Shown here in pieces: positions 48,706-58,760 of a stretch of DNA of 64,000 bases (the first letter of the stretch is position 1; the number at the start of each line of letters is the position of its first letter). The notes below the pieces were generated by a model. That model searched no databases and was not told the DNA's origin. It worked only from the letters and a program-made list of their open reading frames with translations. This DNA comes from an uncultured Chloroflexia bacterium (lineage in GTDB: Bacteria; Chloroflexota; Anaerolineae; Anaerolineales; Anaerolineaceae): NCBI GenBank assembly GCA_963741885.1, contig CAVUJS010000009.1, positions 54,636-118,635 on the forward strand. The letters run 5' to 3'. The position numbers were made by a program, and so were the translations under genes.

Positions 48706-50112
48706 ATGAACGAGCGTAAAAAACCCGTTTTTTCGCACGACGCAGGCAGCAGTCCGAACCGTACCGAGGCCCGCGAACCTTATCGAGTAGGTGTCTTTTT
48801 CTCCCGTTTACTATCGGCGCATGTGCTCACCCCTTATTTGCAGAAGATGACGGATCGCTACCTGCGGCTTGAACCGGCCAAATTAAAGTCCCTGCCTGGG
48901 CCGCAGCCAGGGAAGGGCTATACCTTATACATCCATATCCCCTTTTGCGAGAGCCTGTGCCCTTACTGCTCCTTCAACCGCTTCCTTTTTGACAGGGAAC
49001 AGGCGCTGGACTATTTCAAGCATCTGCGGGAAGAACTGCGCATGGCGCAGCGCCTGGGTTACCACTTCACCTCGCTGTACATTGGCGGCGGCACGCCCAC
49101 CATTTTGATTGATGAGCTGTGCGAGACGATCGACCTGGCCCGCGCGCTCTTTCCCATCGGCGAAGTCTCCTGTGAGACCAACCCCAACCACCTGATTCCA
49201 GCCTATATTGAGAAACTGTCCGGGCGCGTGCAGCGCCTGTCGGTGGGCGTGCAGTCTTTTGAGGATGATCTGCTGAAAGAGATGGGCCGCTTCCAGAAGT
49301 TTGGCTCGGGCAGCGAGATTGTCGAGAAGATCCGCGCGGCAGCGCCCTACTTCCCTTCGCTGAACGTGGATATGATCTATAACTTCCCCAACCAGAGCGA
49401 GGAAATCTTGCGCCGCGATGTGCAAATGGTGATCGATTCGGGCGCGCAGCAGGTGACCTTCTACCCGTTGATGACTTCCCCGTCTGTAGCGAAACTGTTG
49501 GACCGTTCGGTGGGGCGCGTGGATTACCGGCGCGAGGCGCGTTATTATGAGATCGTGCTGGAGGCGCTGGGCGGGGAGTTCAAGCCTATGTCGGCCTGGA
49601 CCTTCCTGCGCAAGGGCACCGGTATGCTGGACGAATATATCGTGGAGAGCGAGGAGTACGTGGGGCTGGGCTCGGGCGCGTTTAGCTTCCTGGACGGCAC
49701 GCTGTACGTCAATACCTTCTCCCTGCGGGAATACCGCCGCGCAATCGAAGCCGGGTCCATGTCCGTCTCGGCCTGCCAGGTCTACGGCAAGCGCGAGCAG
49801 ATGCGCTACCGCTTTATGATGGAATTGTTCAGCCTGCGCTTTGACCGGGCGCGCTTCCAGCGCAGTTTTAAGACCCCGGCGGAGTGGGGCCTGTTCTTCG
49901 AGATGCTCTTTATGGGCCTGGCGGGTTCGTTCGCGCGCATCACGCGCGATGCGCTGTTTCTGACCCCGCGCGGCAAGTACCTGGCAGTGGTGATGATGCG
50001 CGAATTCTTCTCTGGCGTGAATAATGTGCGCGACGAAGCGCGCAAAGCCCTCTCTGAGGACGAGCGTATGTGCGCCTTCCCGCTCAAAGGCAAGCAGGTG
50101 ACGGTGCATTAA
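48706..50112 (+). CDS. Radical SAM enzyme, HemN/HemZ-like coproporphyrinogen-III-oxidase family
   Basis: CESLCPYCSF (CxxxCxxC), GGGTPT, and a HemN_C-like tail. Confidence 0.88.
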   Translation: MNERKKPVFSHDAGSSPNRTEAREPYRVGVFFSRLLSAHVLTPYLQKMTDRYLRLEPAKLKSLPGPQPGKGYTLYIHIPFCESLCPYCSFNRFLFDREQALDYFKHLREELRMAQRLGYHFTSLYIGGGTPTILIDELCETIDLARALFPIGEVSCETNPNHLIPAYIEKLSGRVQRLSVGVQSFEDDLLKEMGRFQKFGSGSEIVEKIRAAAPYFPSLNVDMIYNFPNQSEEILRRDVQMVIDSGAQQVTFYPLMTSPSVAKLLDRSVGRVDYRREARYYEIVLEALGGEFKPMSAWTFLRKGTGMLDEYIVESEEYVGLGSGAFSFLDGTLYVNTFSLREYRRAIEAGSMSVSACQVYGKREQMRYRFMMELFSLRFDRARFQRSFKTPAEWGLFFEMLFMGLAGSFARITRDALFLTPRGKYLAVVMMREFFSGVNNVRDEARKALSEDERMCAFPLKGKQVTVH

Positions 50113-50327
50113 GCAAAAGCCCGGTTCCATTCTGGAACGACTCACGCCCCTGCTGAACTCCGGGGCGGGAAAGGCCGTCCCCGAATGCGGTTGTGCCGCA
50201 AAACGAATAAGCGCATCAAACAGGGCGAGGGGAGGTTCCTTTCGAAAGCCAATGATCATTCGCGGATGAACCCAAGCCATCCTCGGCCTATTTTATTCGT
50301 TTATTCGCTTCTGCCATTCGTGGACGG
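50074..50327. repeat. Direct repeat, copy 1 (last 39 bp of the radical SAM gene + spacer + MITE-like element 50175..50327)
   Basis: About 94% identical by hand alignment to 54593..54845. The two copies bracket the AT-rich island. Confidence 0.9.
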
Positions 50328-50403
50328 TTTTGCCACACCCCGCAGGGCGCTTGCGTTATAAAAATAGCTTCCGGTTTTACAAAAAATCCTCACCCCCGGC
50401 CCC

Positions 50404-51884
50404 CATAGGCGCTAACTTATGGTTGTCCATTAAGCTGCACAAAGCATTGCCAATTGAGAGCGAGCCACCGCAAGCTGCTGACGGCGTTTTCTGGGAGAGC
50501 CACACAGGTACCTTTCGAGCAGGGCGAGCTTCCCCAAAACCTGTTGCCAACTGGGCAGTTCGCCAATGACCCAAGACAGGAGGGTGTGGATCAAGTAGGT
50601 GTCCAGGCGCCAAATGCTGATCGGGCGATCCAGGTCGTCAAACAAATCCGGTACCTGTTGGGCGATTTCCGAGCGCAAACCATCGACCAAAATGGCGGCC
50701 AGGAGTTTGGTCAGCAAGTAGGTTTGCGCCAGGTCATTATTCTGAGCGCGCAGGTGATCCAGGTCCAACAAGCTTTTCATGCGTTTGAAATACAGCTCAA
50801 TTTGCCAGCGCCAGCGATACAGCGCCAAGACTTGTTCGCTAGACCAGCCTTGGGCCGGTAAGTTAGTGAGGAGGATGACAAACCCGACGGCGTACAGGTT
50901 CTTCTCCATCGGTTGATGTTTTTTCTTGCGGCTGTTCTTGCGCGCGCGTTCACGGGCTTTTTCCGCTTTTTCGGGTGGCAAGGGACAGGCCACCAGGCGC
51001 ACCGGCTGCAGCCCTTGCGCGCCAGGCAGCCACACCTGCGTTTCCGCCGGGTCAGTCGCTCCTTGCGGAAAGGTAGCTTTGAGCCAGGCGATGATGTCGA
51101 ACTTCTCTCCCGCTTGGCTATAGACCGGCATGGTATTCCACTGCTCGCGCGTGACAAACTTGGCCCCGGCCTGCAAGGCCTTTTCCAGGCCACGGGTGCG
51201 GGTATAACCGCTATCCGCCAGATAGATGTCCTGGTCGCTCAGCGAAAAGTTGCCAAAGCCTTCGCCGCCATGTTCATCGGTGAGGATCACTTGATCAATG
51301 CGCATCTGGTCGAGATCCATCGACACATGCAGCCGCCAATCGGTGCCCTGGCTCTTGGGTTTGGAGATCACGCTGGCATCCAGGATTTTGAGATGCAGCG
51401 CCGCTTGGGACGGGAATTGGATGCCGTTCTGCTGTAGCAGTTGCACCGCCAGTGCGCCCAGCCAGGCTGGCATGCCTTGTAGGCGTCGCATCAGATCCAC
51501 ATCCGAGATATTGCAGATCTCTAACAGGGTCGCCATCAGCGCGGTTTGCCGTAATGACCAATCCGGCAAGCTATACAGAAACGCCAATTGTAAGAGCGCT
51601 TCCGCGCTGCGGATCTCACGGCAGCGCAGCAAGGCCGCATGTTGCTTGGCGCTTTGATCTAGATCGTCTGGCAGTCTTTGTTTCACCCTTTCCCATTTCT
51701 CATTCAGCAACGGATGACTGCTCGTGGCTGTTGCCGCTACGGGTTGATCGAAGATTTGAACTGTGCTACACTCCACCTTGACCTCCTGGGTTTGATTTTG
51801 GTTTTGAGCAGCTTAATCTTACCCTAGAGGTCATTTTTGTCGTATCTGTTTGTTTCCGTTCAGAACCATAAGTTAGCGCCTATG
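50404..51884 (-). mobile_element. IS4-family insertion sequence (1481 bp) with 21-bp perfect TIRs and an 11-bp target-site duplication
   Basis: TIR CATAGGCGCTAACTTATGGTT at 50404-50424, with its reverse complement at 51864-51884. Flanking CCCCCGGCCCC at 50393-50403 and 51885-51895. Confidence 0.9.
50430..51776 (-). CDS. IS4-family DDE transposase
   Basis: 448 aa. YRWRWQIELYFKRMK (Y-2-R-3-E-6-K signature of the IS4 family). Fills the IS between the TIRs. Confidence 0.9.
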   Translation of the reverse strand: MECSTVQIFDQPVAATATSSHPLLNEKWERVKQRLPDDLDQSAKQHAALLRCREIRSAEALLQLAFLYSLPDWSLRQTALMATLLEICNISDVDLMRRLQGMPAWLGALAVQLLQQNGIQFPSQAALHLKILDASVISKPKSQGTDWRLHVSMDLDQMRIDQVILTDEHGGEGFGNFSLSDQDIYLADSGYTRTRGLEKALQAGAKFVTREQWNTMPVYSQAGEKFDIIAWLKATFPQGATDPAETQVWLPGAQGLQPVRLVACPLPPEKAEKARERARKNSRKKKHQPMEKNLYAVGFVILLTNLPAQGWSSEQVLALYRWRWQIELYFKRMKSLLDLDHLRAQNNDLAQTYLLTKLLAAILVDGLRSEIAQQVPDLFDDLDRPISIWRLDTYLIHTLLSWVIGELPSWQQVLGKLALLERYLCGSPRKRRQQLAVARSQLAMLCAA

Positions 51885-52140
51885 CCCCCGGCCCCTCTCC
51901 ATTTTCGCCAAAGCTCGAAAACGGAGGGGTGCCTTTTAATGGTGCGAAAATTCGCCCGATTTCTGCCTCCCCTCTCCGAAACCTGCCGGTTTTGCAGGTT
52001 TTGGAGAGGGGATCGAGAGGTGAGGATTTTGTTTGTTACGCTGAGCATAACCTCCATACGGCGAACGCGGTTCGCCGCAAGGAACGGTTGCCCAACGCAA
52101 GGAGAAAGGGCGGCGAACCGTGGGGTGAGGATTTTATGCG
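51885..52140. repeat. Mosaic hairpin repeat cluster (right half of the element interrupted by the IS)
   Basis: CTCTCCATTTTCGCCAAAGCTCGAAAACGGAGGGG, CCCCTCTCCGAAACCTGCCGGTTTTGCAGGTTTTGGAGAGGGG, CGGTTCGCCGCAAGGAACGGTTGCCCAACGCAAGGAGAAAGGGCGGCGAACCG, GGGTGAGGATTTT. Collinear with the uninterrupted copy at 56715..56955. Confidence 0.85.
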
Positions 52141-52292: not shown

Positions 52293-53393
52293 ATGGCGAA
52301 TAATGAGAGTTTGAATAAGGCAAATATAGCAAAGAAAGACGAGTTTTATACGCAGCTGTCGGATATTGAGGCAGAAATGCGCCATTACAAAGAACAGTTT
52401 CGCGGCAAGGTCATTTTCTGCAACTGCGACGACCCATATGAGAGCAACTTTTTCAAATATTTTGCGATGAACTTTAATTTTTTGGGTCTAAAAAAACTGA
52501 TCGCTACCAGTTATTCCGGGTCTCCGGTCGCGACCCAACAACTGTCCTTGTTTGATGTTAAGGATTTGGCGGTGGAAAGCACCGATGACAGGCACCCGTA
52601 TAAAGTCGAGATTACTGAAGTAAATGACGAAAACGCGGACGGCGCGGTTGGCCTGGCGGACGTGGCGTATTTGCTCAAAAACAAAAAAAATGCTTTAGCG
52701 TTACTGGAAGATGGCGGCGATTTCCGCTCGGCTGAATGTATCGCACTTGCTGAAAGAAGCGGATATCGTAGTCGACTAATCCACCATTTTCACTGTTCCG
52801 GGAATATGTGGCGCAGTTAGATGGAATACGAAAAAGCAGTTTATCATTATTGGTAATACAAATGCTTTAACATATAAAGAAATATTTAAACTAATAAAGA
52901 GGACAATAAGATTTGGCTATGGCAAATTTCCATAGTGGGAATGTATTTTTATGTTCCAGATTATTACCCGATAAATAGCGATAAGATTGAAGAGTGGACG
53001 AAAGATGGTTAGGGTTTCGTACATCTTGTTGGTTTACTAACCTATGAGTTTGAAGAACGACACGAAAATTATTACATCTATATAAGCATTACACATCCGA
53101 AGAATACCCTCGCTATATTAATTACGACGCAATTGAAGTGCTCAAAAACCGCCGAAATACCCTGCGACTATGATGGTGAAATGGGCGTTCCCATTACATT
53201 CCTTGATAAATACAATCCGGAACAATTTGAAATTATAGGTTCAAGTATCTTTCTCGGAAAACCGATGTCTGAAATTGCCCCGAAAGGAACCTATATGGCG
53301 GGGGGCGTAAGGTTCTATCTTCCAAATGGGGATGGCACTTACAAACGTCTTTATGATCGGATTGTGATTAAGCGGAAAGGCGCTCGACAATGA
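52293..53393 (+). pseudogene. Decayed N6-adenine DNA methyltransferase (EcoRI-methylase-like family), multiple frameshifts and stops
   Basis: The N-terminal 150 aa are intact (KKDEFYTQ, VIFCNCDDPYESNFFKYF). NPPFSLFREYVAQL, IIIGNTNALTYKEIFKLIK, YFYVPDYYPINSDKIEEW, WFTNL, YPRYINYDAIEVLKN and GVPITFLDKYNPEQFEIIG are all present but spread over all three frames, with at least 6 frame changes. Confidence 0.8.
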
Positions 53394-54478
53394 AAATCGA
53401 ATTGCAAGAAATCACCGTCCGCGAAGTCGCGGAAAAGTACGTAGATAACGCCGAAGAGGGCGTGGTGGGCTACCACAGCAAACTGAATATCCGCCCGAAA
53501 TACCAGCGCGAGTTCGTCTATGACGAGAAAAAGCGTAACGCGGTGATGGATACCATCCGCAACGGTTTTCCCCTCAATGTCATCTACTGGGCGAAAAATG
53601 AAGATGGCACGTTTGAAGTGTTAGACGGTCAGCAAAGGACGATCAGTTTTTGCCAGTACGTTTGCGGCGATTTCTCCATCGACAACCGCGCTTTCCACAA
53701 CCTGACGAACACCGAAAAAGAACAGATCCTCAACTATCCGCTGATGGTCTATTTCTGCGAGGGCAACGACAAGGAAAAGTTAGACTGGTTCAAGATCATC
53801 AATATTGCTGGCGAAAAACTCACCGACCAGGAACTGCGCAACGCGGTATATACCGGACCCTGGCTGACACACGCAAAATCGATCTTCAGTAAAAGCAACT
53901 GCGCGGCTTATCTTTTATCCAAAGACTATGTGAGTGGCTCTCCGATCCGGCAAGAAATTCTCGAAACAGCATTAAGTTGGATCTCAAATGGCGAAATAGA
54001 GAAGTACATGTCTATGCACCAGCACGACCCGAACGCGAATGAGTTGTGGATGTATTACCGGAGCGTCATAGATTGGGTGCAATTAACCTTCCCTGAGTAC
54101 CGTAAAGAAATGAAAGGCATCGAATGGGGCGGTTTGTACGATCAATTCAAAGATGAATTGTTTGACACCCACAAGTTGGAGCAGGAAATACAGTCCCTGA
54201 TGCTGGATGATGACGTCACAAAAAAACGGGGAATTTATCCTTATGTATTAAACCGCGACGAGAAATATCTCAATCTTCGCGCCTTTACCCCGAATCAAAA
54301 GCGGGAAGCGTATGAAAGGCAAAAAGGCATCTGTCCAAGATGCGGACCTGAGAAACACTACGCACTGGAAGAAATGGAAGCTGACCACATTACTCCGTGG
54401 CATGAAGGCGGGAAAACCATCGCGGAGAACTGCCAGTTTCTTTGCAAGAGACACAATCGGGAAAAATCTGGAAAATAA
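53390..54478 (+). CDS. DUF262 (ParB/Srx-fold, GmrSD N-domain-like) + C-terminal HNH nuclease
   Basis: RPKYQREFVY and LDGQQRT (DUF262 motifs). C-terminal CPRCG...ADHITPWHEGGKTIAENCQFLCKRHNREK (HNH). ATGA overlap with the end of the methylase pseudogene. AT-rich codon usage. Confidence 0.85.
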   Translation: MKIELQEITVREVAEKYVDNAEEGVVGYHSKLNIRPKYQREFVYDEKKRNAVMDTIRNGFPLNVIYWAKNEDGTFEVLDGQQRTISFCQYVCGDFSIDNRAFHNLTNTEKEQILNYPLMVYFCEGNDKEKLDWFKIINIAGEKLTDQELRNAVYTGPWLTHAKSIFSKSNCAAYLLSKDYVSGSPIRQEILETALSWISNGEIEKYMSMHQHDPNANELWMYYRSVIDWVQLTFPEYRKEMKGIEWGGLYDQFKDELFDTHKLEQEIQSLMLDDDVTKKRGIYPYVLNRDEKYLNLRAFTPNQKREAYERQKGICPRCGPEKHYALEEMEADHITPWHEGGKTIAENCQFLCKRHNREKSGK

Positions 54479-54592
54479 AAATTGGTAAGAACAATAAACG
54501 CTCCTTCTTTTGCGAATTGAAGGAGCGTTTAGATTGTTGGAGGGGTTTTGTGTTTATTTTTTGAGCACTTCATTTAAGCTGCCACTGCTGAA

Positions 54593-54845
54593 GCCTTCCC
54601 GCTCAAGGGCAAGCAGGTGACGGCGCATTAAGCAAAAGCCCGGTTCCATCCTGGAACAACTCACGCCCCTGGTGAATTACGGGGCGGGTAAGGCCGTCCC
54701 CGAATGCGGCTGCGCCGCAAAACGAATAAACGCATCAAACAGGGTGAGCGGAGGTTCCTTTCGAAAGCCAATGATCATTCGCGGATGAACCCAAGCCATC
54801 CTCGGCCTATTTATTCGTTTATTCGCTTCTGCCATTCGTGGACGG
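54593..54845. repeat. Direct repeat, copy 2 (pseudo 3' end of the radical SAM gene + spacer + MITE-like element 54694..54845)
   Basis: GCCTTCCCGCTCAAGGGCAAGCAGGTGACGGCGCATTAAGC... is collinear with 50074..50327. Preceded by a ~45-bp segment homologous to the larE 3' end. Confidence 0.9.
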
Positions 54846-54973
54846 CATTCCCATCCATGACTACGGAAAAGGCGTCCGAATGGCAAGCCGGCGCCAGATG
54901 GGCAGAGCAATCCCGGTTAGGAGCGCGATCCCGTGGCTCTCAGGTAGGGGATAGTTGCTCCAATTCAACCTGC

Positions 54974-55764: not shown

Positions 55765-56607
55765 CTAATCTTTATTCAGCACTTCATTTAAACTGCCACT
55801 GCGGAAGCCTTCCAGGTCTACGGTGACGTACTGGAAGCCAATTTGCTTGAAATAGGCGCTGACTTCTTCGCGCAGCCCGACCAGGCGGGCGATTTCGCTG
55901 GCCTGGACTTCGATGCGCGCTAAAGGGCCAGTATTGCGCACGCGCACCACGTCGAAGTTGAGCGCGCGCAGGTAGGCTTCGCCAGAGGCCACCTGCTGTA
56001 ACTTCTCGCGGGTGACTTTATTGCCGTAGGGGATGCGGGAGGCCAGGCAGGGCGAAGAGGGGTGGTTCCAGTTACCTAACCCCAAGGCTTTGGCCATAGC
56101 GCGCACTTCCTGCTTGGTGATGCCCAGTTCGGCCAGCGGAGAGGTGACCTGACGTTCCTTTGCCGCGCGCAAGCCGGGGCGGTAATCGCCCAGGTCGTCG
56201 GCGTTGGCGCCCATCAGCACGTGCCGGATGCCCGCTTTCTGGGCAATCTCACTGATGATGCCCAGGTCGACCGATTTGCACACATAGCAGCGGTTCGGAG
56301 AGTTTTCCACGTATTCTTCATCTTGCAGCTTGTCATAATCAATGACCTGGTGGGGAAAACCAAACTGGGCTGCCAGGGCAGCGGCTGTTTCCATGATGCC
56401 CGCGGTCTCTACCTGCGAGCGGATGGTGACCGCCAGCATGTGCGGCTCGAGCGCCTGGTGGGCGACCACCGCCAGCAGCGAACTATCCACGCCGCCTGAA
56501 AATGCCACGACTGCCGCATCCATCTCCGTCAGGCGCTGCACCAGCGCCTGGTATTTTTGATCTATTTGGGGGTTATGGGTAAGGGTTGGGAGGGTTTTTG
56601 TCGTCAT
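55765..56607 (-). CDS. larE: ATP-dependent sacrificial sulfur transferase LarE (PP-loop ATPase)
   Basis: PP-loop VAFSGGVDSS, CYVCK, and the sacrificial-Cys motif SSPCLASRIPYG. No larA/B/C adjacent. Confidence 0.85.
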   Translation of the reverse strand: MTTKTLPTLTHNPQIDQKYQALVQRLTEMDAAVVAFSGGVDSSLLAVVAHQALEPHMLAVTIRSQVETAGIMETAAALAAQFGFPHQVIDYDKLQDEEYVENSPNRCYVCKSVDLGIISEIAQKAGIRHVLMGANADDLGDYRPGLRAAKERQVTSPLAELGITKQEVRAMAKALGLGNWNHPSSPCLASRIPYGNKVTREKLQQVASGEAYLRALNFDVVRVRNTGPLARIEVQASEIARLVGLREEVSAYFKQIGFQYVTVDLEGFRSGSLNEVLNKD

Positions 56608-56714: not shown

Positions 56715-56955
56715 CTCCGAAAATAGTTTCCGGTTTTACAAAAAATCCTCACCCCGCGGTTCGCCGCAAGGATAGGTTGCCCGACGCAAGAAGAAAGAGC
56801 GGCGAACCGTGTCCTCTCCATTTTCGCCAAAGCCCGAAAACGGAGAGGGGTGTCTTTTTAATGGCGCGAAAATTTGACCGATTTCTGCCTCCCCTCTCCG
56901 AAAACGGGCGATTTTTCCGTTTTTGGAGAGGGGAACGAGGGGTGAGGACTTTATG
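56715..56955. repeat. Mosaic hairpin repeat cluster (uninterrupted reference copy)
   Basis: TCCGGTTTTACAAAAAATCCTCACCCC + CGGTTCGCCGC...GCGGCGAACCG + CTCTCCATTTTCGCC...AAAACGGAGAGGGG + CCCCTCTCCGAAAACGGGCG...CGTTTTTGGAGAGGGG + GGGTGAGGAC. Confidence 0.85.
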
Positions 56956-56984
56956 TGTCGCATCGCGCACTGCCACCAGGGCGA

Positions 56985-58760
56985 TTATTTTTGGTTTAAG
57001 GCACCCAGATCCAGTCGATACGCTGCGGGTTGCGCATCCGATCGTCGATGAGGAAGGGTTTCCAGTCGCGCGAGCGCAGGCCGTAGAGCAGGGTGGCGGG
57101 GCCGCCGTTCGGGTCTGGCGAGAAGAAGAAGTACAGGCCAGTCTGGGTGGAGGAACTCGGTAAAGCTGCTTATGGGCGGTTGGAAGATCACCTGCGGGTC
57201 GCTGCCGGGCTTCACCAGGGTCAGGCCGGCGCTGCGGCTGGTGAACAGCCAGGAACCATCCGGCAGCATGCGCAGCGGGTTGGGCGGCTGGCCCATCGAG
57301 CCGTCAAAGGGTGAGCCGGTCAGGACGGGCCGGAGATCCCCATTGCGTTGGATGGAGAACATGCCTTCGCCCGGGTTGTAACCATACCAGGCAGCGTAGT
57401 AGTTGCCGGTGTAGAGCTTCTGAAAACCGGTGTTGGAAATGGCGCGGGGTTGGGGATTGTAGAGCGAAACGAGGTAGATGCCGGGTTCGCTGCTTTTCTC
57501 ACTGGCGTTTGCCACCTGGGGCGTCACGCTGACGACCACCTGGTTGTGTGCCTTGTCGAAGATAAAGTCCGCGTAACAGCCGGGCCATAACTGGGTGACC
57601 TCAGCCGTGTGCAGGTTCACCACGCGCAGGTCCTGGCTGCCGCAGTTGGGCCGGGAAGAGGACAGCATCACATTGACACCCGTCAGCCACTGCACCAGCC
57701 GTTCGCCCCCCGACTGGTTGCCCGGCGCAACCTGGATAGAGTTGCCGCCGTAGACTTCGTACACCCAGGCGCCCGCTAACCAGACGCCCGCGCCGGTGCC
57801 GAAGCTGTACGCGGCGGTATAAAACAGGCGCTGCCCAGAAAGGGACCAGTCCAGGTTGAAGGCGTGGGCCGGGCCTTCGCTCAACTGCAGCTGAGTCACC
57901 CGGCGCATATCACCAGTGGAGGGGGTGTAGATGTAGATATCCCCGGAATTCCCCTCATGCCCCGAGACAAACGCCAGCATATGCCCGCCCGGCGACCAGA
58001 CCATGCCGCCCTGATCATAGGCGCTCAGGGTTTGGAAAGCCGCGTCCAGGTCCGCCTGCGAGCTGGAGGCGTTGAGGCTGGGGTTGGTGATGGAGGTGAT
58101 GGTGTAGCTTTTATCATTATACAGCGTCATGATTTTGAGGCTGTAGCCGTAGGGGTGGTCGTAAGGGGTGGTGTTCGGGACGGCATGGGTGACGTAAGCG
58201 GCCATCGTGCCGCCGGGGGAAACCAGCAGGTGATCAATGGGGTCGCTGGTCAGCAGCGTCAGCTGGGTGCCGTTAGGGCGCAGCGCCCACAGGCCTTGCG
58301 GCGATGGAATCAGGCCCATCACGCCCTGGGTCAGCGTGCCGGTGGGGATGACCTGCGGGGTCGGGGTGGCGAGGAGCGGCGGCTGGTTGGTGGGGGTCGG
58401 CTGTTTCGCTTCAGCCGTGAGAGTGGGCCCGAACATATCCCCGATGGTGGGGACCGGCAAAGGCGTGCCGATCGGCGGGGGGTTGATATCCAGGGGCGGG
58501 GTGATGGGCTGGTCGCCAGCCTGGGCCAGCGGCGGCAGCAGCGTGCTTAACGGACTGCCGGTGATGGGCAGCCCGCTGCTTTGCGTTTGCAGCGTCAGCG
58601 GGAAGGGCGTGACGGTGGGAATGTGGGTGGGGCTGGGGATTAAGGTAATGGTCGGAAAGGTATCCCCGCCGGCAGGCTGGGCTGGCCCGCAGGCGGTTAA
58701 GATAAGCAGGAGCAGGGCCAGTGCGCTCAGGCCCCGGTAGAGGAAAGCTTTCGATTGCAT
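56985..58760 (-). CDS. Lipoprotein with Pro/Thr-rich linker and TolB-like beta-propeller; 3' end apparently frameshifted
   Basis: Lipobox LILTAC. VWSPGGHMLAF and DWSLSGQRLFY motifs. The last ~45 codons of the annotated frame are Arg/Pro junk. An alternative frame reads GLYFFFSPDPNGGPATLLYGLRSRDWKPFLIDDRMRNPQRIDWIWVP and stops at 56996. Confidence 0.75.
   Translation of the reverse strand: MQSKAFLYRGLSALALLLLILTACGPAQPAGGDTFPTITLIPSPTHIPTVTPFPLTLQTQSSGLPITGSPLSTLLPPLAQAGDQPITPPLDINPPPIGTPLPVPTIGDMFGPTLTAEAKQPTPTNQPPLLATPTPQVIPTGTLTQGVMGLIPSPQGLWALRPNGTQLTLLTSDPIDHLLVSPGGTMAAYVTHAVPNTTPYDHPYGYSLKIMTLYNDKSYTITSITNPSLNASSSQADLDAAFQTLSAYDQGGMVWSPGGHMLAFVSGHEGNSGDIYIYTPSTGDMRRVTQLQLSEGPAHAFNLDWSLSGQRLFYTAAYSFGTGAGVWLAGAWVYEVYGGNSIQVAPGNQSGGERLVQWLTGVNVMLSSSRPNCGSQDLRVVNLHTAEVTQLWPGCYADFIFDKAHNQVVVSVTPQVANASEKSSEPGIYLVSLYNPQPRAISNTGFQKLYTGNYYAAWYGYNPGEGMFSIQRNGDLRPVLTGSPFDGSMGQPPNPLRMLPDGSWLFTSRSAGLTLVKPGSDPQVIFQPPISSFTEFLHPDWPVLLLLARPERRPRHPALRPALARLETLPHRRSDAQPAAYRLDLGALNQK

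What the first reader, a model, noticed from the sequence alone, without database searches (positions are those of the whole stretch)
52293..54478. Intact DUF262-HNH nuclease retained next to a heavily decayed cognate-looking N6A methyltransferase
SEEN: all conserved blocks of an EcoRI-methylase-like enzyme, including the catalytic NPPF (NPPFSLFREYVAQL), are present between 52293 and 53393. They are distributed over three frames with at least 6 frameshifts or stops. The downstream 362-aa DUF262 (QREF, DGQQRT) + HNH ORF is uninterrupted and still overlaps the pseudogene stop by ATGA, a former translational coupling.

ESTABLISHED: DUF262 is the NTP-binding/ParB-like N-domain of GmrSD-type modification-dependent (Type IV) restriction enzymes.

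INFERENCE: the nuclease does not need this methylase for self-protection. It may be modification-dependent or otherwise licensed, so the pair is not a classical Type II R-M. Alternatively, decay of the methylase may have switched the specificity logic of the module.
Basis: partly seen in the sequence, partly recalled or inferred. Interest (0 to 1): 0.6.

Follow-up and report, generated by a model that had tools for sequence, protein, structure and literature searches.

The report
Methylase-nuclease cassette with suspiciously broken methylase
This is one more copy of a very common mobile methylase-plus-nuclease defence cassette; its methylase gene is broken by a dozen tiny insertions and deletions packed into 400 bases, a pattern that looks more like a local sequencing or assembly fault than real gene decay.

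Summary
The sequence is as described. An EcoRI-family adenine methylase (52293-53393) is broken. It overlaps by ATGA an uninterrupted 362-aa DUF262-HNH nuclease (53390-54478).

The pair belongs to a very common mobile cassette. About 140 of 160 related loci carry an intact methylase directly upstream. PADLOC matches the nuclease end to end as a Type II restriction enzyme. This scan has already noted the family in more than 250 genomes.

The methylase is not broadly decayed. Twelve frame-breaking indels, ten of them insertions, all lie within 52744-53141. None lies in a homopolymer of four or more bases, and there are no extra substitutions. The other 700 bases of the gene and the whole nuclease gene are clean. 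That pattern does not fit neutral decay. It fits a local long-read consensus error (about 0.55). A real, recent methylase-off copy remains possible (about 0.35).

The Type IV, modification-dependent reading is not supported. Relatives do show methylase-off, nuclease-intact states: poly-G tracts out of frame, single frameshifts, and one lone nuclease. The methylase swaps variable segments while the nuclease stays constant. This hints that the nuclease needs the methylase to act, as in Type III systems.

Interest is low to moderate.

The parts
52293..52820 (+). 5' fragment of the EcoRI-family N6-adenine methylase gene. The native frame runs to about 52743, followed by a 25-aa out-of-frame tail.
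   Evidence: PF13651 positions 2-138, E 1e-52. It is 76-78% identical to intact relatives, with no indel.
52744..53141 (+). Zone holding all 12 frame-breaking indels (+1 x8, +2 x2, -1, -2) and one +3. It covers the NPPF motif (52778-52789) and methylase variable segment V2.
   Evidence: Frameshift-aware protein-to-DNA alignment. MAFFT DNA alignment to intact L097 and L098. Every relative needs at least 16 gap positions here and 0-3 elsewhere.
53133..53393 (+). 3' fragment of the methylase gene, in the same frame as the 5' fragment. It carries the Shine-Dalgarno-like GGAAAGG ahead of the nuclease start.
   Evidence: PF13651 positions 266-345, E 3e-18. It is 82-86% nt identical to relatives with no gaps.
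53390..54478 (+). Intact DUF262 (ParB/Srx-like, QREF and DGQQRT) plus zinc-HNH nuclease, 362 aa.
   Evidence: PF03235 and PF01844. PADLOC PDLC03418 REase_II, profile positions 1-372 of 372, E 2e-137. It keeps 133 of 134 columns that are at least 97% conserved in 201 relatives. Weak fold matches to ParB/Noc/Srx and to Gme-HNH/McrA.
54495..54531 (+). Terminator-like hairpin closing the cassette.
   Evidence: 13-bp stem, -20.1 kcal/mol, followed by a T-rich tract. Homology to relatives ends at the nuclease stop codon.
50074..50335 (+). Left copy of a direct repeat of about 260 bp, including the 3' end of the radical-SAM gene. It brackets the 4.5-kb inserted segment.
   Evidence: the repeat finder families D1 and D6, 93-94% identical to 54593-54853.
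54593..54853 (+). Right copy of the bracketing direct repeat.
50430..51776 (-). IS4-type transposase gene inside the bracketed segment.
   Evidence: 448-aa ORF. The genome holds six copies, five of them 100% identical.

Best explanation
The locus is an ordinary copy of a widespread mobile two-gene restriction-modification cassette. An EcoRI-family m6A methylase comes first, and a ParB-like (DUF262) NTPase plus HNH nuclease follows, translationally coupled. The cassette sits in a repeat- and IS-rich insertion in an Anaerolineae-type chromosome. The nuclease gene is intact.

The methylase reading frame is interrupted only by 12 very small indels confined to 400 bases. The changes are indel-only, biased towards insertion, outside homopolymer runs of four or more bases, tightly clustered, and not accompanied by extra substitutions or in-frame stops. 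This is what a local consensus or polishing fault of a long-read metagenome assembly looks like. It is not what neutral pseudogene decay looks like.

So the methylase is most likely intact, or at most very recently broken, in the organism. The 'orphan nuclease' is probably not real.

Shown: the cassette's identity, the anatomy of the breaks, and the intact state of the nuclease. Inferred: the technical origin of the breaks.
For: 1. Clustering. All 12 frame-breaking indels fall within 405 of the gene's 1101 bases (P about 6e-6 if placed uniformly). None falls in the 1089-base nuclease gene.

2. No excess substitutions. Nucleotide identity to intact relatives is 77-79% in the centre and 76-84% in the flanks. 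Frame-corrected amino-acid identity is 75-77% against 77-78%.

3. Type of change. There are ten insertions and two deletions. Most are single bases in mixed sequence and none lies in a homopolymer of four or more bases, while the A7 and A8 runs nearby are in frame. Natural indels are mostly slippage events and deletions.

4. Long reads were involved. Identical 1.5-kb IS copies are resolved inside contigs of up to 966 kb. This rests on my own knowledge that short-read assemblers do not span such repeats.

5. Other indel-type breaks in the same assembly. A Type I island at C21:489-499 kb has two hsdM copies with 8-9 frameshifts but only one in-frame stop each, plus split hsdS, hsdR and integrase genes. 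A neighbouring 591-aa gene is frameshifted at about 57140.

6. The low GC of the centre is normal for the family: 0.30-0.36 in intact genes.

7. The cassette is otherwise pristine. The nuclease keeps 133 of 134 near-invariant residues.
Against: - No reads could be examined, and two metagenome scans found no independent assembly of this copy.
- I cannot name the technical mechanism that would spoil 400 bases and spare the 700 + 1089 bases around them.
- Five IS copies are 100% identical, so base accuracy is high elsewhere.
- The changes are not the homopolymer errors typical of nanopore data.
- Methylase-off, nuclease-intact states do occur in relatives from short-read assemblies: L019, L054 and L160. 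A real broken methylase is therefore biologically tolerable.
- The Type I island may simply be an old dead island.
Confidence: 0.55

Rival explanations
1. The breaks are real and recent. The methylase was switched off and the nuclease is tolerated because, in this family, it cannot restrict without its methylase partner. This is Type III-like logic: the methylase supplies target recognition and the ParB-like/HNH protein is a generic effector. The nuclease is pristine only because too little time has passed for it to decay.
For: - Relatives have the methylase out of frame and the nuclease intact. L019 has a G12 tract inside methylase segment V1, L160 has a G11 tract in the same segment, and L054 has a single -1 frameshift. 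L066 has an intact nuclease with no methylase nearby.
- Further simple-sequence repeats lie in methylase genes but not in nuclease genes, apart from one short (TA)5 in L018: L010 (CAGA)22, L083 (CA)37, L143 (AG)12, L155 (AG)9.
- Methylase variable segments do not track nuclease identity. Correlation is 0.10-0.16 for V2 and V3. V3 has at least 26 types among 69 pairs. Nuclease mean pairwise identity is 71.5% against 59% for the methylase.
- BanLI is a possible characterised relative. It methylates one strand of an asymmetric site and restricts only weakly (PMC3990576).
Against: - The same pattern that argues against neutral decay applies here. One frameshift is enough to switch the gene off, so 12 non-templated indels in 400 bases with no substitutions need an unknown mutational burst.
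- The relatives that are off carry one change each, not twelve.
- Dependence of the nuclease on the methylase is inferred from comparative data only.
- Homology of BanLI to this family was not verified here.
Confidence: 0.33
2. One reading: the DUF262-HNH protein is a modification-dependent (Type IV, GmrSD-like) or otherwise self-sufficient nuclease that never needed this methylase. The pair is then a chance or regulatory neighbourhood.
For: The DUF262 domain is shared with GmrSD, BrxU and SspE (PF03235 hit; literature PMC4619093 and PMC12065111). A lone intact nuclease exists in L066.
Against: - The methylase lies directly upstream, on the same strand and mostly overlapping, in about 140 of 160 loci across many phyla, plasmids and viral contigs.
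- There is no DUF1524 domain.
- The full-length match is to a Type II REase profile. The PADLOC Type IV profile matches only the HNH end, at E 2e-3.
- Where the methylase has been lost for longer (L070), the nuclease is broken too.
Confidence: 0.04
3. This is a classical Type II system whose methylase really died. The cell survives because another methylase in the genome protects the same sites, or because the nuclease is no longer expressed.
For: The genome holds other intact adenine or N4 methylase genes: four of the N6_N4 type and one HsdM. No convincing promoter for the nuclease was found inside the dead gene.
Against: - There is no second PF13651 methylase in the genome.
- The specificities of the other methylases are unknown.
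- The nuclease keeps its own Shine-Dalgarno-like sequence and shows no relaxed constraint.
- The unnatural pattern of the breaks remains unexplained.
Confidence: 0.06

Closest known systems
Type II R-M cassettes catalogued in REBASE-derived profile sets (PADLOC PDLC03418 REase_II with PDLC03297 MTase_II)
   Same: Separate methylase and nuclease genes with the methylase first, translationally coupled. The cassette is mobile, occurs on small plasmids, and has lower GC than its host. The nuclease matches the profile end to end (E 2e-137), and an intact relative of the methylase matches MTase_II (E 5e-112).
   Different: The nuclease is more conserved than the methylase and does not co-vary with the methylase's variable segments. 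Some relatives carry phase-variation-type repeats in the methylase. Neither feature is expected of a classical Type IIP pair.
BanLI system of Bifidobacterium animalis subsp. lactis (PMC3990576). This lead came from earlier scan notes.
   Same: According to the paper, M.BanLI is an EcoRI-like adenine methylase of 41.7 kDa and is followed by a 43.5-kDa restriction gene. It lies in a lower-GC island next to an integrase. It methylates one strand of RTCAGG and restricts weakly (EOP about 0.1). Sizes and gene order match this cassette.
   Different: Sequence homology of R.BanLI and M.BanLI to this family was not verified here. Only the primer ends were available and they are not informative.
GmrSD / BrxU / SspE (DUF262 + DUF1524 Type IV or PT-sensing nucleases)
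   Same: An N-terminal ParB/Srx-like DUF262 domain with the DGQQR motif, and a C-terminal His-Me finger nuclease.
   Different: This protein is about half their size. It has a canonical zinc-HNH (PF01844) instead of DUF1524. It is almost always coupled to its own methylase, whereas GmrSD-type enzymes are solitary and attack modified DNA.
Type III R-M systems (Mod/Res, e.g. EcoP15I) and their phase-variable mod genes
   Same: The logic suggested by the comparative data is similar: a variable methylase, a constant NTPase-nuclease partner, simple-sequence repeats in the methylase gene, and tolerated methylase-off states.
   Different: There is no SF2 helicase or PD-(D/E)XK Res protein, and the methylase is EcoRI-family rather than Mod-type. 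This is a resemblance in logic only and is untested.
EcoRI system (M.EcoRI / R.EcoRI)
   Same: The methylase belongs to the same Pfam family, PF13651.
   Different: The partner nuclease is unrelated to R.EcoRI: ParB-like + HNH rather than PD-(D/E)XK.

Membership tests
EcoRI_methylase family (PF13651) | Profile match above the gathering score over the whole domain | tested here: met
   The two clean fragments match positions 2-138 and 266-345. The six-frame genome search matches positions 2-345 at 251.6 bits with stops inside.
EcoRI_methylase family (PF13651) | Catalytic NPPF tetrapeptide present | tested here: met
   NPPF lies at 52778-52789, but in a frame shifted relative to the start of the gene.
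EcoRI_methylase family (PF13651) | One continuous open reading frame, i.e. a functional gene | tested here: not met
   In the assembly, 12 frame-breaking indels lie between 52744 and 53141. Whether they exist in the DNA is untested.
Type II R-M system (separate M and R; methylation protects) | Adjacent methylase and nuclease genes conserved as a pair | tested here: met
   About 72 of 84 genome and Logan loci and 69 of 80 viral-contig loci have an intact methylase upstream on the same strand.
Type II R-M system (separate M and R; methylation protects) | Nuclease matches a profile built from REBASE Type II enzymes | tested here: met
   PADLOC PDLC03418, residues 1-362 against profile positions 1-372, E 2e-137.
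Type II R-M system (separate M and R; methylation protects) | Nuclease recognises the target by itself, so nuclease and methylase specificity elements co-vary | tested here: not met
   Methylase variable segments V2 and V3 correlate only 0.10-0.16 with nuclease identity. Pairs with nucleases at least 90% identical can have V3 only 7% identical.
Type II R-M system (separate M and R; methylation protects) | Site-specific cleavage blocked by the cognate methylation | not testable with these tools
   This needs biochemistry.
GmrSD-type Type IV enzymes | DUF262 N-domain with the DGQQR motif | tested here: met
   PF03235, E 6e-21. DGQQRT at residues 79-84.
GmrSD-type Type IV enzymes | DUF1524 (PF07510) C-terminal nuclease domain | tested here: not met
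   Only PF01844 and PF14279 HNH matches were found, with no PF07510.
GmrSD-type Type IV enzymes | Solitary gene without a cognate methylase | tested here: not met
   The methylase is coupled in the great majority of loci.
GmrSD-type Type IV enzymes | Cleaves modified DNA only | not testable with these tools
   This needs biochemistry.
Type III R-M systems | Res subunit with SF2 helicase motifs and a PD-(D/E)XK nuclease | tested here: not met
   The nuclease has ParB-like and HNH domains only.
Type III R-M systems | Phase-variable methylase gene with the restriction gene left intact | tested here: met
   This holds in relatives, not in this window. L019 (G12) and L160 (G11) are out of frame; L010 has (CAGA)22, L083 (CA)37 and L143 (AG)12.
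Type III R-M systems | Nuclease subunit inactive without the methylase subunit | not testable with these tools
   This is inferred only from tolerated methylase-off states.

The most novel reading that the evidence does not exclude
The methylase is truly off in this population while the nuclease stays pristine. Together with the poly-G out-of-frame methylases of L019 and L160, the single frameshift of L054 and the lone nuclease of L066, this would show that the DUF262-HNH nuclease is harmless without its methylase. The family would then be a methylase-guided, phase-variable restriction system with Type III-like logic, built from an EcoRI-type methylase and a ParB-like NTPase/HNH effector. It would be wrongly filed as classical Type II.
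Probability: 0.3. Interest if true: 0.6.

Novelty: new member of a known kind. Interest (0 to 1): 0.28.

Why it matters
For this locus it matters little. It is one more copy of a catalogued cassette, and its one unusual trait may be an assembly fault. That is a caution against reading dense frameshift clusters in long-read MAGs as biology.

For the family the stakes are higher. If methylase-off, nuclease-intact states are real and harmless, the nuclease does not find targets on its own. A very abundant group of 'Type II' systems would then work by a methylase-guided mechanism with a ParB-type NTPase, which nobody has tested biochemically. That would affect how R-M systems are typed, how phase-variable methylomes are predicted, and how this nuclease might be used.

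Tried and rejected
- **Independent assembly.** Two exact-pattern scans of metagenome contigs, one in the methylase and one in the nuclease, found nothing. In the 5.8-billion-protein search the nearest intact methylase is only 76% identical and the nearest nuclease 89%.
- **Synteny with same-genus genomes, to estimate the assembly's indel rate.** Relatives are only 65-77% identical at the DNA level and not syntenic. Their copies of the cassette are 72-80% identical, which indicates independent acquisitions.
- **A common motif at the 13 indel sites** (a methylation or restriction site, or duplication of a neighbouring base). None was seen.
- **Low GC as the cause.** Intact relatives have the same low-GC centre.
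- **A mosaic or recombinant centre.** The nearest relatives of the centre and of the flanks are the same loci, L097-L099.
- **Genome-wide ORF-poor scan.** The fraction is normal at 5-12%, so the assembly is not globally noisy.
- **Literature on this exact pair.** Nothing was found under DUF262 + EcoRI, DGQQR, or DUF262 + Type II + REBASE.
- **The BanLI link, taken from earlier notes.** It could not be verified from the primer sequences.
- **Structure.** The AlphaFold model is of moderate quality (pLDDT 73, pTM 0.47). Foldseek gave only weak domain-level hits with E at least 0.013.
- **Promoter scan.** There were fewer hits than in shuffled sequence, so it is uninformative.
- **Conserved flanks of a mobile unit.** None exist; homology starts at the methylase ATG and ends at the nuclease stop.
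Full report
**Observation**

Two clean ORF fragments match the EcoRI methylase family. Fragment 52293-52820 matches PF13651 positions 2-138 (E 1e-52). Fragment 53133-53393 matches positions 266-345 (E 3e-18). The catalytic NPPF (52778-52789...TNPPFSLFREYVAQL) lies between them in another frame.

The next gene, 53390-54478, is an uninterrupted 362-aa protein with PF03235 (GmrSD_N/DUF262) and PF01844 (HNH). It carries QREF at residues 39-42 and DGQQRT at 79-84. Its ATG overlaps the methylase TGA as ATGA. The whole 2.2-kb unit has 41-47% GC in a 59.5% GC window.

**How the methylase is broken**

A frameshift-aware protein-to-DNA alignment against four intact homologues and a DNA alignment against two intact genes, L097 and L098, agree. 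There are 12 frame-breaking indels: eight +1, two +2, one -1 and one -2. There is also one in-frame +3. All lie between 52744 and 53141.

The first 450 and last 250 bases of the gene have none, and the 1089-base nuclease gene has none. Every relative tested needs at least 16 gap positions in the centre and 0-3 elsewhere. Uniform placement would give this clustering with P of about 6e-6.

Nucleotide identity to the intact relatives is the same in the centre (77-79%) as in the flanks (76-84%). Once the frame is corrected, amino-acid identity is also the same, 75-77% against 77-78%. The low GC of the centre (0.31-0.35) is normal for the family, since intact genes show 0.30-0.36. Most insertions are single bases in mixed sequence and none of the indels lies in a homopolymer of four or more bases, while the A7 and A8 runs nearby are in frame.

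**What the pair is**

The nuclease has thousands of relatives at 66-89% identity. These occur in Chloroflexota, Clostridia, Patescibacteria, Lentisphaerae, Planctomycetota and even archaeal MAGs. They are also on plasmids as small as 7.5 kb and on viral contigs.

About 72 of 84 genome and Logan loci, and 69 of 80 viral-contig loci, have an intact EcoRI-family methylase ORF directly upstream on the same strand. It usually overlaps the nuclease gene by 4 or 11 nt. Some lineages have an extra gene inserted between the two. Homology between copies starts at the methylase ATG and stops at the nuclease stop codon.

PADLOC matches the nuclease end to end with its REase_II profile PDLC03418 (E 2e-137). 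It matches an intact relative of the methylase with MTase_II (E 5e-112). There is no DUF1524 domain. An AlphaFold model (pLDDT 73) gives only weak, domain-level fold matches: ParB/Noc/sulfiredoxin for the N-terminal domain, and Gme-HNH and EcoKMcrA for the C-terminal end.

So this is a catalogued, mobile R-M cassette. Earlier notes of this scan record the same family in more than 250 genomes.

**State of the nuclease**

Against 201 relatives, the window's protein keeps 133 of the 134 columns that are at least 97% conserved. The only departure is G30S. All ParB-like and HNH motif residues are present.

**Are the breaks real?**

Two metagenome scans found no second assembly of this copy.

The indirect evidence leans towards an artefact. 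Neutral decay long enough to collect 12 indels in 400 bases should have three consequences. It should hit the other 700 bases too. It should add many substitutions and several in-frame stops. It should favour deletions and slippage at repeats. None of these is seen.

An indel-only, insertion-biased, non-templated pattern is what errors in a long-read consensus look like. The assembly must involve long reads, because identical 1.5-kb IS copies are resolved inside contigs of up to 966 kb. That inference rests on my own knowledge of assemblers.

The assembly also holds other indel-type breaks:
- A Type I island at C21:489-499 kb has two hsdM copies with 8-9 frameshifts but only one in-frame stop each, plus split hsdS, hsdR and integrase genes.
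- The neighbouring 591-aa gene is frameshifted near 57140.

Several points count against the artefact reading:
- Five IS copies are 100% identical.
- The genome-wide share of ORF-poor sequence is normal.
- I cannot name a mechanism that would spoil exactly 400 bases.
- Methylase-off states do exist in relatives (see below).

I put the artefact at about 0.55 and a real, recent methylase-off copy at about 0.35.

**How the family seems to work**

Three comparative results depart from the classical Type II picture.

1. The nuclease is more conserved than the methylase. Mean pairwise identity is 71.5% against 59%.
2. The methylase has three variable segments: V1 (about residues 81-100), V2 (201-260) and the tail V3 (from 319). 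They do not follow nuclease identity. Correlation is 0.10-0.16 for V2 and V3, and V3 has at least 26 types in 69 pairs. Pairs whose nucleases are at least 90% identical can differ almost completely in V3. The window itself shows this. Its nuclease is 89% identical to that of L085, yet the two methylases have different V2 and V3 types.
3. Several relatives carry simple-sequence repeats in the methylase gene but not in the nuclease gene, apart from one short (TA)5 in L018:
   - G12 in L019 and G11 in L160, both in V1 and both leaving the methylase out of frame with the nuclease intact;
   - (CAGA)22 in L010, (CA)37 in L083, (AG)12 in L143 and (AG)9 in L155.

L054 has a single -1 frameshift in its methylase and L066 has an intact nuclease with no methylase. 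In L070 the methylase is gone and the nuclease is broken too.

This is the behaviour of phase-variable Type III mod genes, whose Res partner is harmless alone. It suggests, but does not show, that the nuclease needs the methylase in order to act.

Earlier scan notes gave two leads: the 'methylase-guided' reading and the BanLI system. The BanLI paper describes an EcoRI-like methylase that marks one strand of RTCAGG, followed by a weakly restricting 43.5-kDa nuclease (PMC3990576). I could not verify that BanLI belongs to this family.

The Type IV, modification-dependent idea is not supported. The evidence against it is the coupling to a methylase in about 140 of 160 loci, the absence of DUF1524, and the full-length Type II profile match.

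The weaker claims have some comparative support. These are that the nuclease may not need the methylase for self-protection and that the pair is not classical Type II. Verdict: partly supported.

**Setting**

The cassette lies in a 4.5-kb segment bracketed by direct repeats of about 260 bp that include the 3' end of the radical-SAM gene (50074-50335 and 54593-54853). The segment also holds an IS4-type transposase gene (50430-51776, six copies in the genome) and host REP-like repeats. A hairpin at 54495-54531 closes the cassette.

**Verdict**

This is a real and ordinary member of a known cassette family. Its headline feature is probably technical, and reads would settle the question at once. 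Interest is low to moderate. The most novel reading still open is that methylase-off, nuclease-intact copies reveal a methylase-guided mechanism for this abundant family (probability about 0.3).

Noticed in passing
G000 contig C21:489000-499000 (locus L112): A lower-GC Type I R-M island with an integrase. It has two tandem hsdM copies, each with 8-9 frameshifts but only one in-frame stop, and split hsdS, hsdR and integrase genes. It is a second indel-riddled mobile island in this assembly. It is either an old dead island or a sign of poor local consensus.
   Followed up: partly
window 56985-57200 (minus strand): The 591-aa lipoprotein-like gene changes frame near 57140. After ...FTEFLHPD another frame reads well-formed protein (GLYFFFSPDPNGGPATLLYGL...WIWVP*).
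   Followed up: partly
window 50074-50335 and 54593-54853: Direct repeats of about 260 bp (93-94% identical), including the 3' end of the radical-SAM gene. They bracket a 4.5-kb segment holding the IS, REP-like repeats and the R-M cassette. This looks like an insertion or duplication scar.
   Followed up: partly
window 50430-51776 (minus strand): An IS4-type transposase gene. The genome has six copies, on C9, C4, C10 and C21 only, and five are 100% identical. Contig GC ranges from 0.517 to 0.623. The IS and the REP-like repeat occur only on the higher-GC contigs, so the bin may mix two organisms.
   Followed up: partly
window 51894-52138 and 56739-56958: REP-like host repeats, with about 70 partial copies on C9, C10, C21, C4, C5, C1 and C17. 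They flank the cassette on the left and recur 4.6-4.9 kb downstream.
   Followed up: no
window 54554-54664 (minus strand): A short remnant resembling the C-terminus of the 280-aa PP-loop protein encoded at 55765-56607 (...GFSSGSLNEVLKK against ...GFRSGSLNEVLNKD). It is a gene scrap at the right edge of the cassette.
   Followed up: no
L019:5159-5170; L160:1649-1659; L010:5820-5907; L083:33-106; L143:2256-2279: Simple-sequence repeats inside methylase genes of relatives: G12, G11, (CAGA)22, (CA)37 and (AG)12. The two poly-G tracts lie in the same variable segment, V1, and leave the methylase out of frame while the nuclease is intact. This fits phase variation.
   Followed up: partly
L043, L071, L072, L073, L079; L165-L190: In Patescibacteria, one Methanosarcinales MAG and many viral contigs, an extra gene of 134-560 aa is inserted between the methylase and the nuclease.
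   Followed up: no
window 52895-52990: Two reading frames of the same window DNA each resemble a different methylase V2 type: EDNKIWLWQ... is like the P0001 type, and TIRFGYGKFP... is like the P0007 type. The two V2 types in the family may themselves be related by old compensated frameshifts.
   Followed up: no
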